Origin: Promethearchaeota archaeon
GTDB lineage: Archaea; Asgardarchaeota; Lokiarchaeia; Sigyniarchaeales; SOKP01
Reading direction: 5' to 3'
Assembly (NCBI GenBank): GCA_016839745.1
Contig: JAEOTS010000009.1
Span: forward strand, 1-64,000
DNA: 64,000 bases
The notes beneath the pieces were generated by a model. The model was not told the origin of the DNA and ran no database searches. It saw nothing but the letters and a program-made list of their open reading frames with translations. This document shows positions 198-36,625 of this stretch, piece by piece. The position numbers and the translations under genes were made by a program. How positions within the stretch are numbered: position 1 is the first letter of the stretch; every line of letters starts with the position of its first letter.

Positions 198-330
198 GCC
201 TAACAAATTCTTTACAACTCCTTTTAAGTTTAACGATTTGTTATAAAAAAGTTTAATTACTAGTCTTTACTATTTCTATTACTTACAACCATATAAATAA
301 AGCATTTTACCATAATATAGCCAGACTTAT

Positions 331-555
331 GAAATGGTTGTTAGTGGTGTTTTTAGCCACATAATCTTGTAGCGACTAGCTACAACGCCGGAAGTTAAAC
401 TGTTTTGCGTTGCAGATAGTACTGTAGTTGAAAATCTATGGGAACTTGCAAACTGTAGCCTCGGCTACGGTCATGGTAATACAGGATAGTACCCGGTACC
501 ATCCGAACCCGGAATCGTAAATGTGGTTAAAGAATATCACTGAAATCGTTATTTC
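331..555 (+). repeat. Long imperfect inverted repeat enclosing the permuted 5S gene (putative processing stem)
   Basis: AGTGGTGTTTTTAGCCACAT (343-362) pairs with ATGTGGTTAAAGAATATCACT (521-541) using several G-U pairs and one bulge. GAAAT (331-335) pairs with ATTTC (551-555). Confidence 0.75.
388..514 (+). rRNA. rrf: 5S rRNA gene, circularly permuted (3' half 388-460, then 5' half 463-514)
   Basis: 463-514 (GGCTACGGTCAT...ACCCGGTACCATCCGAACCCGGAA) carries the 5S loop C CCGAAC motif. 388-460 (CCGGAAGTTAA...TAGTA...GGGAA...CTGTAGCC) carries loop E AGUA/GAA. Joining 463-514 to 394-460 gives 119 nt that folds into helices I-V. Confidence 0.85.
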
Positions 556-617
556 CTTATAAATAATGTTTTTAAATAATACATTATAAGATCTAGTAAG
601 AGTTAATTAATTCTATT

Positions 618-5122: not shown

Positions 5123-6310
5123 CTAAATACGCTTTATTAATATTTCTTTCAAGTCTTCGGGTTTAAGGTGAACTGGATTGTTTTTTAAGCCCGTTTTTTC
5201 TATAATACTATCAATATCTGCTGTGGTGATCCCATACTTACCTAGACGATCAATGTTTAATTGCTTAGTCCAATTATCAAGTCTTTCAATTAATATTGAA
5301 CAGTAATGCGCAACATTAATTTCTTCAAAACTTTCCTTTCCATTGATTAAAGCTCCAACTATAGCGTATTTCAGTAAGCCAATTTTACCCTCGGTACCTA
5401 AGTGCTCTAATCTTTTTATATTCATTTTAGTACTCTCAGCAAGTAGCGTCCCACACACTACACCGTGAGGAATGTTAAACAATCCTCCGATAGAAGATGC
5501 GAAACCATGAACAATTCCTAAGCCAGCGTTTGCAAGGACAATTCCAGACATTAATGAGCCATAAGCCATGGCAGCCCTTGCAGTTATGTCTAAGGCTTTA
5601 TCGTTGCAAGTGGAAATTATCGCATTTTTCATTTGTTTTATGCCATTCTTTGCTAATGCATCAGTAATAGGATTAGATTTAGGTGAAACAAATGCTTCGA
5701 GTAATTGCGTGAAGGCGTCCATTCCACAGGGTGCAGTGACTGATTTGGGGCAGGATAATACAAGTTGGGGATCGATAACGGCATAATTGGGAATTAAATT
5801 GTCATGACGAAGAGATTTCTTAAATCCTCCAATTCCTAACTCAGTTATAACAGCATTCTTAGTTGCTTCGCTTCCAGTTCCCGATGTTGTGGGAACGGCA
5901 ATATAAGGGATTTTTCTGCCATCATGAGCTTTATTTCCAACGCCTTCAAGGTAATTTTTGATTGAATCATTTTTAGGAAGCATTGCAGAAATCGCTTTAC
6001 CTGCGTCAATAACACTACCCCCGCCAATTCCAACAACAACATCTACTTTTTGATTCCTAAACTTTTGCGCCGCTGCATCAACTAATGCAGGTGTAGGTTC
6101 TTTACTAACTGAAATTTCTGAGAAACTAATTGCCTTCTTTTGCATTGTATTTGCAATTTCATCCCATTTTCCCGATTTTTTAAGAGATGATCCTCCGATA
6201 ACATAAAGCGCATTATTTCCAAATTTTGGTATTAATCCGTATATTTCATTTAGTCTTCCAGCTCCAAAAATGATATGCGGTATGCTAGCGAAATTAAAAT
6301 CAAATAACAT
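5123..6310 (-). CDS. Iron-containing alcohol dehydrogenase
   Basis: GIGGGSVIDAGK, PTTSGTGSEAT, MDAFTQ, GIVHG, PHGVVC. Confidence 0.93.
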   Translation of the reverse strand: MLFDFNFASIPHIIFGAGRLNEIYGLIPKFGNNALYVIGGSSLKKSGKWDEIANTMQKKAISFSEISVSKEPTPALVDAAAQKFRNQKVDVVVGIGGGSVIDAGKAISAMLPKNDSIKNYLEGVGNKAHDGRKIPYIAVPTTSGTGSEATKNAVITELGIGGFKKSLRHDNLIPNYAVIDPQLVLSCPKSVTAPCGMDAFTQLLEAFVSPKSNPITDALAKNGIKQMKNAIISTCNDKALDITARAAMAYGSLMSGIVLANAGLGIVHGFASSIGGLFNIPHGVVCGTLLAESTKMNIKRLEHLGTEGKIGLLKYAIVGALINGKESFEEINVAHYCSILIERLDNWTKQLNIDRLGKYGITTADIDSIIEKTGLKNNPVHLKPEDLKEILIKRI

Positions 6311-36551: not shown

Positions 36552-36625
36552 GGGAGGGTGGTCTAGCTTGGTATGATTCCTGGTTTGGGACCAGGTGGCC
36601 GGGGGTTCGAATCCCCCCTCTCCCA
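36552..36625 (+). tRNA. tRNA-Pro (anticodon TGG), intronless, CCA not encoded
   Basis: Acceptor GGGAGGG/CTCTCCC, anticodon stem CCTGG/CCAGG with loop TTTGGGA, T arm GGGGG-TTCGAAT-CCCCC; T-run follows. Confidence 0.96.

What the first reader, a model, noticed from the sequence alone, without database searches (positions are those of the whole stretch)
388..514. Circularly permuted 5S rRNA gene in an Asgard archaeon
Seen: the two halves of a 5S rRNA are in reversed order. 388-460 is the canonical 3' half (CCGGAAGTTAA, helix II 3' strand CTGTTTTGC, loop E TAGTA/GAA, helix IV CTGTAG/CTATGG, terminal CTGTAGCC). After a 2-nt linker (TC), 463-514 is the canonical 5' half (GGCTACGG, loop A CAT, helix II 5' strand GTAATACAG, ACCCGG-loop C CCGAAC-CCGGAA). 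The normal 5' and 3' ends are therefore joined as a hairpin (CTGTAGC-CTCG-GCTACGG), and the new ends fall in helix III, where CCGGAA occurs twice (388-393, 509-514). The re-ordered sequence is 119 nt, the standard 5S size, with all helices intact, which argues against decay. Established: permuted 5S rRNAs are known from some algal mitochondria, and permuted tRNA and SRP RNA genes from Thermoproteales. I do not know of an archaeal chromosomal permuted 5S gene. Inference: this is a functional 5S gene that linear-model annotators would miss or call partial.
Basis: partly seen in the sequence, partly recalled or inferred. Interest (0 to 1): 0.95.

Follow-up and report, generated by a model that had tools for sequence, protein, structure and literature searches.

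The report
Back-to-front 5S rRNA gene, splice-rejoined
This Loki-type Asgard archaeon encodes its only 5S ribosomal RNA with the back half before the front half, between cut signals of the tRNA-splicing type, so a normal 5S can form only if the transcript is cut and its ends rejoined, probably into a 121-base ring.

Summary
Window 394-460 is the 3' part of a 5S rRNA, 460-463 is a 4-nt cap (CUCG) and 464-514 is the 5' part.

- **Order of the halves.** Rfam finds only two sub-threshold half-matches in swapped order. The re-ordered 119 nt match a profile of canonical 5S from the sister family end to end.
- **Only 5S in the genome.** The locus is single-copy and is the only 5S signal here. It is present in 118 of 131 genomes of the family (12 of 13 genera). 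The only canonical 5S genes found in family genomes lie on two bacterial contaminant contigs.
- **Structure.** The 5S helices hold in permuted order: 96% of cells are paired against 35-43% in slid controls, with 13 compensatory pairs.
- **Cut signal.** The ends form a bulge-helix-bulge motif: ACG-CCGG-AA|G ... CCGG-AA|T-CGT. It is present in 62 of 67 species loci against 0.07% of slid sites, and it covaries. Its cuts restore the canonical junction for two different breakpoints and for about 30-nt introns.
- **Enzymes.** The genome encodes two EndA paralogues (alpha/beta-like) and RtcB.

I could not obtain RNA evidence. Ligation, and whether the ring stays closed, are inferred.

I found no published archaeal permuted 5S gene. 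This scan has noted the same design many times before on other Asgard DNA.

The parts
300..322 (+). Conserved A/T-rich upstream element (AAGCATTTTAC..ATAGCC), a candidate BRE/TATA promoter. Inferred.
   Evidence: Conserved block in the alignment of 41 loci. It lies about 20-40 nt upstream of the processing stem. No promoter test was run.
341..362 (+). 5' strand of the leader-trailer processing stem. The conserved core is TTAGCCACAT, 353-362.
   Evidence: The MFE fold pairs 341-362 with 521-542. The 10 core pairs are 95.6% paired across 37 loci, and 3 of them show changes on both sides, such as CG to UA.
367..385 (+). Leader hairpin TTGTAGC-GACTA-GCTACAA. It abuts the outer BHB helix and may stack on it.
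   Evidence: MFE. The stem sequence changes but a hairpin is kept in most lineages. It is absent where the outer BHB helix is 6 bp, as in G007, G041 and G045.
385..387 (+). BHB outer helix, 5' strand (ACG). Pairs with 516-518.
   Evidence: The outer helix is at least 3 bp in 62 of 67 species loci. Many pair types occur: GCG/CGC, ACG/CGT, CCGC/GCGG, TAGTG/TGCTA, AAAGCG/CGCTTT and TTAAAATG/CATTTTAA.
388..391 (+). BHB central 4-bp helix, leader strand (CCGG). Pairs with 509-512. It mimics the 5' strand of helix III and is discarded.
   Evidence: 99.3% paired, CG:20, UA:14, UG:2 at the variable pair; 4 of 4 pairs in 67 of 67 loci.
392..394 (+). 5' bulge AAG. The predicted cut is after A393, so G394 becomes the 5' end.
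   Evidence: The cut position within the bulge follows the known BHB rule (established knowledge). For this type the product is the same for a cut after bulge base 0, 1 or 2.
394..459 (+). 3' part of the 5S rRNA: helix III outer 3' strand, helix II 3' strand, helix V, loop E (AGUA/GAA), helix IV, loop D and helix I 3' strand.
460..463 (+). Cap tetraloop CUCG, joining what are normally the free 3' and 5' ends of helix I.
   Evidence: The cap is always 4 nt in 65 distinct loci: UUCG 25, UUUG 16, UUAG 15, UACG 4, CUCG 3. The closing pair covaries (C-G, G-C, A-U).
464..514 (+). 5' part of the 5S rRNA: helix I 5' strand, loop A, helix II 5' strand, loop B, helix III and loop C, ending in CCGGAA.
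509..512 (+). BHB central helix, 3' strand (CCGG). This is the mature helix III 3' strand. It pairs with leader 388-391 before cleavage and with 493-496 afterwards.
   Evidence: three-way covariation of alignment columns 107, 242 and 290; the BHB conformer is 3.7 kcal/mol above the MFE.
513..515 (+). 3' bulge AAT. The predicted cut is after A514.
516..518 (+). BHB outer helix, 3' strand (CGT).
521..542 (+). 3' strand of the processing stem. The core is ATGTGGTTAA, 521-530.
569..573 (+). T5 run inside the conserved GTTTTTAAA, a candidate transcription terminator. Inferred.
   Evidence: Conserved in the alignment. Not tested.

Best explanation
This is the organism's functional, and only, 5S rRNA gene, encoded in circularly permuted order.

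Proposed pathway:
1. A precursor of about 230 nt is transcribed from its own promoter.
2. Leader and trailer pair in a processing stem (341-362 with 521-542).
3. Leader CCGG (388-391) pairs with the 3' strand of helix III (509-512). This gives a relaxed bulge-helix-bulge motif: outer helix 385-387/516-518, bulges AAG and AAT.
4. The tRNA-splicing endonuclease, here a two-gene alpha/beta type, cuts after A393 and after A514.
5. RtcB joins A514 to G394. This rebuilds the conserved ...CCGAACCCGGAA-GUUAAAC... junction of helix III and loop C. The product is a 121-nt covalently closed RNA in which helix I is capped by a tetraloop.
6. The released CCGG then pairs with 493-496 to form helix III.

Shown here: the permuted order, conservation, covariation of the 5S helices and of the BHB, the absence of any other 5S gene, and the presence of the EndA and RtcB genes.

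Inferred: transcription limits, cleavage, ligation, and that the ring is what enters the ribosome. I put about 0.8 on the ring forming and about 0.55 on it staying closed.
For: **Native against re-ordered match.**

**No other 5S.**
- There is no other RF00001 signal at E<=10 in the own genome.
- The model R1 of the permuted core finds one copy in 118 of 131 family genomes and 12 of 13 genera.
- Two single-contig and three 10-contig family assemblies have only sub-threshold RF00001 signals, and all of these lie at the permuted locus.
- The two canonical hits in family MAGs lie in bacterial rRNA operons.

**Structure.**
- In A1, 96.4% of cells are paired against 35-43% when slid, with 13 pairs changed on both sides.
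- In A2, 91.3% are paired against 37-47%.

**BHB motif.**
- The central helix is 99.3% paired, with CG:20 and UA:14.
- 62 of 67 loci have 4 of 4 central pairs plus an outer helix of at least 3 bp, exactly at the site that restores the canonical junction. Only 22 of 29,480 slid sites do so.
- The same rule works for two breakpoints in this family, type A in 41 species and type B in 26.
- It also works by eye for a third breakpoint in family f3.
- It works for introns of about 30 nt in loop C and helix IV.
- After in-silico processing, all 37 genus loci become 120-121 nt and collinear with 5S.

**Enzymes.**
- Two EndA paralogues of about 200 aa are present.
- One carries Tyr, His and Lys, and its best solved relatives are PDB 3P1Z_B and 3AJV_B.
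- The other lacks the His.
- RtcB is present.

**Cap.** It is invariably 4 nt and is UNCG-like in many loci.

**Precedents.**
- E. coli ribosomes work with a 5S whose native ends are joined by a tetraloop (PMC7283268).
Against: - No RNA evidence was reached. The metagenome scan for the ligated junction returned only canonical 5S genes of other archaea. The viral-contig and protein routes found nothing.
- The motif is relaxed. No inner helix forms next to the 5' bulge (inner = 0). The outer helix is only 3 bp in this lineage.
- Three genus members (G005, G009, G042) have only 1 contiguous outer pair.
- The minimum-energy fold of the precursor pairs the leader CCGG with the other strand of helix III. 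The BHB conformer is 3.7 kcal/mol less stable.
- The MFE of the ring is not unusual against shuffles (z = -1.45).
- A review-level statement in PMC12918454 says archaeal 5S, unlike 16S and 23S, is not known to be circularised.
Confidence: 0.8

Rival explanations
1. The RNA is cut out at the BHB, or trimmed, but never ligated. The working 5S would be a linear, permuted molecule. Helix I would be capped and a nick would sit in helix III, held together by helices II and III. Brown-algal mitochondrial 5S is likewise permuted in the final product.
For: A linear permuted 5S exists in nature (PMC4267664). No ligated junction was seen in any data I could reach. The 5S fold closes without the junction.
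Against: - Established knowledge: EndA products carry a 2',3'-cyclic phosphate and a 5'-OH, which are the substrates of RtcB.
- RtcB is encoded here.
- The introns of about 30 nt in the same gene in relatives need ligation in any case.
- The nick would fall at three different places in different lineages, each time inside or next to conserved loop C or loop B.
- The Thermoproteus precedent is ligated.
Confidence: 0.12
2. A ring is formed but is only an intermediate. It would be re-opened at the cap to give an ordinary linear 5S with normal ends, as for permuted tRNAs of Cyanidioschyzon and for circular pre-16S and pre-23S rRNA.
For: Precedents are cited in PMC4267664 and PMC12918454. My evidence does not exclude a nuclease acting at the cap.
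Against: - The cap is always exactly 4 nt, often UUCG or UACG, with a covarying closing pair. That looks like a structural tetraloop, not a spacer.
- No tRNA-like or other known processing element lies at the cap.
- Capped native ends are tolerated in working ribosomes.
Confidence: 0.22
3. The locus is a decaying or rearranged pseudogene, or an assembly artefact, and the real canonical 5S gene is simply unassembled.
For: The own genome is 89% complete in 192 contigs. rRNA genes are often missing from MAGs.
Against: - The same order occurs in 118 of 131 independent assemblies of the family, one copy each.
- Compensatory changes occur in every helix.
- Two single-contig assemblies have no canonical 5S.
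- The only canonical hits are bacterial contaminants.
Confidence: 0.02

Closest known systems
Permuted, circularised SRP RNA gene of Thermoproteus tenax / T. uzoniensis (Plagens et al. 2015, eLife, PMC4731332)
   Same: Both are essential structured RNAs of a universal RNP, encoded back part first. The new ends lie next to a functionally important loop. [quoted passage not shown]
   Different: - The RNA differs: 5S rRNA here, SRP RNA there.
- The phylum differs: Asgard here, Thermoproteota there.
- Here the breakpoint has moved between lineages (types A and B, and a third in f3), and BHB introns occur in the same gene.
- Circularisation is shown there by RNA-seq and cleavage assays. Here it is only inferred.
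Circularly permuted tRNA genes (Cyanidioschyzon merolae; cited in PMC4267664, refs 58-59)
   Same: The 3' part precedes the 5' part. A BHB-type motif at the transcript ends is cut and ligated into a circle.
   Different: tRNA circles are re-opened at the acceptor ends by RNase P and tRNase Z, across a spacer. Here the 'spacer' is an invariant 4-nt tetraloop with no known processing signal.
Permuted mitochondrial 5S rRNA of brown algae (mtPerm-5S; Valach et al. 2014, PMC4267664)
   Same: It is a 5S rRNA in which helix I is closed as a hairpin and the ends lie elsewhere.
   Different: There the ends lie at the junction of the alpha and gamma domains. The final RNA is itself permuted and linear, and no BHB or splicing machinery is involved. 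Here the break is in helix III next to loop C and is predicted to be sealed.
BHB-containing processing stems of archaeal 16S/23S rRNA, and circular or permuted 23S rRNA (PMC12918454; PMC7758197)
   Same: A leader-trailer stem carries a BHB. EndA and RtcB excise and circularise the rRNA. Circular 23S is reported inside ribosomes.
   Different: Those genes are collinear, so ligation there joins the natural ends. Here ligation creates an essential internal junction, and the natural ends are already joined in the DNA. The literature I read states that 5S is not processed this way.
Engineered cp5S rRNA in E. coli (Huang et al. 2020, PMC7283268)
   Same: The native 5S ends are linked by a tetraloop and new ends are opened at loop C or D. 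The ribosomes are functional.
   Different: That construct is artificial and fused into 23S rRNA. It is not a free or circular molecule.

Membership tests
5S rRNA (Rfam RF00001) | Collinear match to the covariance model at or above the gathering score (38 bits) | tested here: not met
   Native DNA gives 20.1 and 14.8 bits, as two half-matches in swapped order.
5S rRNA (Rfam RF00001) | Full-length sequence homology to canonical 5S once the two parts are re-ordered | tested here: met
   nhmmer with an HMM of 9 canonical 5S genes of sister family f2. The re-ordered window matches HMM positions 4-114 at 34.2 bits, E 1.8e-11. Processed relatives give 32-52 bits. The native DNA is split into 18.8 and 0.1 bits.
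5S rRNA (Rfam RF00001) | Three-way junction with helices I-V, supported by covariation | tested here: met
   In A1, 96.4% of cells are paired against 35-43% when slid, with 13 pairs changed on both sides. In A2, 91.3% are paired, with 11 such pairs.
5S rRNA (Rfam RF00001) | Conserved loop motifs: loop A CAU, loop C CCAUCCGAAC, loop E AGUA/GAA | tested here: met
   All are read directly in the sequence and are invariant or nearly so in 37-43 loci.
BHB-processed permuted RNA genes (SRP RNA of Thermoproteus, permuted tRNAs) | The 3' part is encoded upstream of the 5' part, and the natural ends are joined in the DNA | tested here: met
BHB-processed permuted RNA genes (SRP RNA of Thermoproteus, permuted tRNAs) | A 4-bp helix flanked by two 3-nt bulges on opposite strands, placed so that the cuts give the functional junction | tested here: met
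   The motif is ACG-CCGG-AA|G ... CCGG-AA|T-CGT. It is present in 62 of 67 loci against 0.07% of slid sites, and it covaries.
BHB-processed permuted RNA genes (SRP RNA of Thermoproteus, permuted tRNAs) | Both flanking helices present (strict hBHBh') | tested here: not met
   The outer helix is present at 3-8 bp. The inner helix is absent at the permutation site (inner = 0). The motif is therefore relaxed. The helix IV intron of relatives is strict (inner 5 bp, outer 3 bp).
BHB-processed permuted RNA genes (SRP RNA of Thermoproteus, permuted tRNAs) | Splicing endonuclease and RtcB ligase encoded in the genome | tested here: met
   Two PF01974 proteins (97.9 and 71.8 bits) and RtcB (565.8 bits) are present. 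The alpha-like protein has Tyr, His and Lys; the beta-like one lacks the His. That alpha2beta2 enzymes accept relaxed motifs is established knowledge and was not tested here.
BHB-processed permuted RNA genes (SRP RNA of Thermoproteus, permuted tRNAs) | Ligated junction or circular RNA observed | tested here: inconclusive
   The metagenome-contig scan for the joined junction found only canonical 5S genes of other archaea. Viral contigs gave 0. Protein look-ups of ring ORFs gave 0. No raw RNA reads are available here.
Mitochondrial permuted 5S (mtPerm-5S) | Ends at the alpha/gamma three-way junction, with a final RNA that is linear and permuted | tested here: not met
   The break here lies in helix III next to loop C, or in loop B in f3, and carries a BHB. 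The description of mtPerm-5S is from PMC4267664.

The most novel reading that the evidence does not exclude
In this whole family of Loki-type Asgard archaea the 5S rRNA inside the ribosome would be a covalently closed 121-nt circle made by the tRNA-splicing machinery. Sub-threshold swapped-order signals suggest the same in several other Asgard lineages. The machinery would also remove micro-introns from the gene, and the splice point has moved during evolution. That would be the first natural circular 5S rRNA. It would also make a universal ribosome component dependent on RNA splicing in the closest archaeal relatives of eukaryotes.
Probability: 0.5. Interest if true: 0.9.

Novelty: new variant of a known kind. 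Interest (0 to 1): 0.8.

Why it matters
- **Annotation.** It explains why 5S genes look missing from many Asgard genomes, and gives annotators a fix: a permuted-core covariance model finds one copy per genome.
- **Reach of the splicing machinery.** It extends BHB, EndA and RtcB 'moonlighting' from tRNA, SRP RNA and 16S/23S processing to 5S rRNA. A review-level statement in a paper I read says 5S is not processed this way.
- **Gene evolution.** It offers a natural series in which the splice point of an essential RNA has shifted and micro-introns have come and gone. The series comprises two breakpoints in one family, a third in a neighbouring family, and introns of about 30 nt in loop C and helix IV, one of them leaving a 7-nt micro-exon. 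Such a series is useful for studying how fragmented RNA genes evolve.
- **Ribosome biology.** If the ring persists, it would be a circular 5S in the ribosomes of the archaea closest to eukaryotes. This is directly testable by RNA-seq or cryo-EM.

Tried and rejected
- **Infernal on the re-ordered sequence.** This was not possible, because the Rfam and CM tools read only the window or loci and Infernal is not in the script box. I substituted nhmmer with a profile of sister-family 5S genes.
- **RNA evidence for the ligated junction.**
These carry canonical, G+C-rich 5S genes of other archaea, not rings.
  - The viral-contig scan gave 0.
  - Searches with ORFs that run through the locus or round the predicted ring gave no candidates.
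  - Earlier notes of this scan claim environmental RNA support in relatives. I could not reproduce that, and I do not count it as evidence.
- **Canonical 5S in relatives.** G015:C263 (51.9 bits) and G089:C68 (80.8 bits) looked like exceptions. Both lie in bacterial 16S/23S operons, so they are contaminant contigs.
- **Alternative BHB registers.** Leader CCGG can also pair with the 5' strand of helix III. That would give a 105-nt circle lacking loop C. It has only a 1-bp outer helix and loses loop C, so I rejected it.
- **Tandem-duplication relic in the leader.** The leader hairpin resembles helix I, but the leader does not align to a 5S 5' half, so I did not pursue this.
- **R1 across the phylum.** It found nothing outside family f1. 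This reflects the sequence-specific model rather than absence. A 1.4-Mb genome of family f5 shows, by eye, the same design with different sequence.

Full report
**1. Observation**

The sequence is as described.
- 388-460 carries GGAAGUUAAAC, the 3' strand of helix II, loop E, helix IV and the 3' strand of helix I.
- 463-514 carries the 5' strand of helix I, loop A, helix II, helix III and loop C.
- CCGGAA occurs at both ends.

Rfam at gathering thresholds finds no 5S in the 64-kb window; the only hit is a tRNA at 36552-36625. In E-value mode it gives two weak RF00001 hits in swapped order: 469-557 at 20.1 bits and 349-461 at 14.8 bits, against a cut-off of 38. These are the only RF00001 signals at E<=10 in the whole genome, which is 3.53 Mb in 192 contigs and 89% complete.

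The re-ordered 119 nt fold into the 5S Y shape. A profile HMM built from nine canonical 5S genes of the sister family matches them end to end (positions 4-114, 34.2 bits, E 1.8e-11). The native DNA gives two pieces in reversed order.

**2. Conservation and structure**

- blastn finds the locus in 38 of 42 genomes of the genus, at 70-98% identity.
- A junction pattern finds it in 70 archaeal species records, labelled Promethearchaeota or Promethearchaeia. The same scan also gave one chance hit and one evidently mis-binned contig.
- A covariance model of the permuted core (R1, from alignment A2) finds one copy in 118 of 131 genomes of the family, covering 12 of 13 genera.
- R1 also hits 1 of 1 genomes of family f3, and 0 of 14 of f2 and 0 of 4 of f4.
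- Family f2 has ordinary 5S genes at 54-69 bits.

In the permuted order the 5S helices are 96.4% paired across 37 loci, against 35-43% when the partner is slid by 1-3 columns. Thirteen pairs change on both sides. For 43 more diverse loci the figures are 91.3% and 11 pairs.

No archaeal canonical 5S turned up in any family genome I searched with RF00001.
- The two canonical hits, G015:C263 and G089:C68, lie in bacterial rRNA operons.
- Two single-contig and three 10-contig assemblies have only sub-threshold signals, all at the permuted locus.
- The four genus members without the locus also lack a canonical gene.

Misassembly and pseudogene readings are therefore excluded.

**3. The ends form a splicing-type motif**

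In the window the motif has these parts:
- leader ACG (385-387), CCGG (388-391) and AAG (392-394);
- on the other side CCGG (509-512), AAT (513-515) and CGT (516-518).

This is a 4-bp helix between two 3-nt bulges on opposite strands, plus a 3-bp outer helix. It has the handedness of an archaeal bulge-helix-bulge (BHB) site. Cutting after the second bulge base, which is the known rule and comes from established knowledge, gives G394...A514. That is 121 nt: the 119-nt 5S plus 2 extra bases in the cap.

Evidence for the pairing:
- The leader CYGG pairs with CCRG in 99.3% of cells, with CG in 20 sequences and UA in 14.
- The same 3' strand covaries with the 5' strand of helix III in the mature fold. 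The leader therefore mimics that strand.
- Where the leader is CTGG and the 3' strand is CCAG, the two CCGGAA-like copies differ. Complementarity, not duplication, is what is conserved.
- Across 67 species loci, all have 4 of 4 central pairs and 62 have an outer helix of at least 3 bp, at exactly the site that restores the canonical junction. Only 22 of 29,480 slid sites do so.
- Outer helices vary widely in sequence: GCG/CGC, ACG/CGT, CCGC/GCGG, TAGTG/TGCTA, AAAGCG/CGCTTT and TTAAAATG/CATTTTAA.

Outside the BHB lies a conserved processing stem, TTAACCAC(AT)/(AT)GTGGTTAA, with compensatory changes. A leader hairpin at 367-385 abuts the outer helix.

**4. The same rule explains other gene layouts**

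- 26 species have the break on the other side of loop C (type B): leader GCG-CYGG-AA|C CAUCCGAAC... and 3' end ...ACCCGG-UC|N-CGC. Cutting there gives the same mature sequence.
- A genome of family f3 has a third break, in loop B, read by eye.
- A 1.4-Mb genome of family f5 has the same design, with different sequence and a 10-bp outer helix.
- Some genus members carry inserts of about 30 nt that are BHB introns.
  - One is in loop C: UCCG-AA|A...CGGG-AA|C. It leaves a 7-nt micro-exon before the permutation joint.
  - One is in helix IV: CUGC-AA|A-AGUGC...GCACU-GCAG-AA|U. This is a strict hBHBh' site.
- After in-silico cutting and joining, all 37 genus loci become 120-121 nt and collinear with 5S.

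**5. Enzymes**

The genome has two EndA-domain genes of about 200 aa.
- One keeps the Tyr, His and Lys. Its best matches among solved structures are 3P1Z_B and 3AJV_B, named only 'tRNA-splicing endonuclease' in the output; from memory these are the Aeropyrum pernix enzyme.
- The other is 29% identical and lacks the His. It matches a beta-subunit model only below the cut-off.

This suggests an alpha2beta2 enzyme. By established knowledge that type accepts relaxed BHB motifs, which fits the missing inner helix here. RtcB is present.

**6. Fate of the product**

The cap is always 4 nt: UUCG 25, UUUG 16, UUAG 15, UACG 4 and CUCG 3 of 65 loci. Its closing pair covaries. This looks like a structural tetraloop rather than a spacer to be cut.

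Engineered E. coli ribosomes tolerate a 5S whose native ends are joined by a tetraloop (PMC7283268). I therefore favour a ring that stays closed, but this is inference.

The BHB conformer of the precursor is 3.7 kcal/mol above the minimum-energy fold, so it is accessible but not the default.

**7. What I could not show**

I obtained no RNA data.
- The other routes found nothing.
- Earlier notes of this scan report the same design in many other Asgard genomes and claim environmental RNA support. I treat those as leads only.

**8. Known or new**

Full-text searches found no archaeal permuted or circular 5S. One 2026 paper states that circularisation applies to 16S and 23S 'but not 5S rRNAs' (PMC12918454).

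The closest known case is the permuted, circularised SRP RNA of Thermoproteus (PMC4731332). Brown-algal mitochondrial 5S is permuted in a different place and stays linear (PMC4267664). I therefore class this as a new variant of a known kind.

At phylum level, canonical 5S above the cut-off was found in 47 of 151 mostly near-complete Asgard genomes, concentrated in a few families: f9, f2, f18, f14 and f28. Two of the 47 are the bacterial contaminant contigs noted in section 2. Several other families show only sub-threshold signals, some as adjacent swapped half-matches, or no signal at all. The phenomenon is therefore probably wider than this family.

Noticed in passing
window 36552-36625 (+): An ordinary tRNA gene (RF00005, 60.5 bits). 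It is the only Rfam hit above threshold in the window.
   Followed up: no
L066 (G015:C263:1-12000) and L179 (G089:C68:10000-20000): Two MAGs of the family contain contigs with bacterial 16S/23S/5S operons. The one in G089 has group I introns in its 23S. These contaminants would be mistaken for the archaeon's 5S gene.
   Followed up: yes
L067, L071, L076, L097, L104, L106, L114 (helix IV / loop D region): Further inserts of about 30 nt lie in or near loop D of the permuted 5S, for example GUUGCGAGUUACAACCC..GUUGUGAGCGAAAUCUG. They are probably more BHB introns at a third position. I did not analyse them.
   Followed up: no
L084 (CAZRKO010000109.1, about 5250-5362): The permuted cap and 5' half are present, but the upstream 3' half is highly divergent or interrupted by a long insert. 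My rules could not process it.
   Followed up: no
L111 (DATKTW010000142.1): A contig labelled Nanopelagicaceae bacterium carries a Loki-type permuted 5S nearly identical to the window's. It is most likely a mis-binned archaeal contig.
   Followed up: partly
L015, L064, L017 (G016, G057, G024), trailers just 3' of the type B cut: The trailer (CGCUACGAUCUGGAAGUUU) looks like a decayed copy of loop C plus the helix III 3' strand (CCAUCCGAACCCGGAAGUU). This suggests that the breakpoint moved from type A to type B by duplication of a 16-nt block, followed by decay of the old copy.
   Followed up: partly
L013 (G026:C63, family f3) and L177 (G156:C1:337480-337980, family f5): There are permuted 5S genes with other breakpoints and sequences. 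In f3 the break is in loop B. In f5 the layout is GGUAGUAUCG-CGUG-AA|A...cap UUCG...CACG-GA|A-CGAUACUACC, with a 10-bp outer helix. So the design is not confined to this family.
   Followed up: partly
window 367-385 against 452-471: The stem of the leader hairpin (UUGUAGC/GCUACAA) resembles helix I (CUGUAGC/GCUACGG). It could mis-pair with helix I strands, or act as a folding guide in the precursor.
   Followed up: no
G032:C1:1399892-1400758 (family f2): The single-contig genome of the sister family has three tandem canonical 5S genes about 375 bp apart. This contrasts with one permuted copy per genome in family f1.
   Followed up: no
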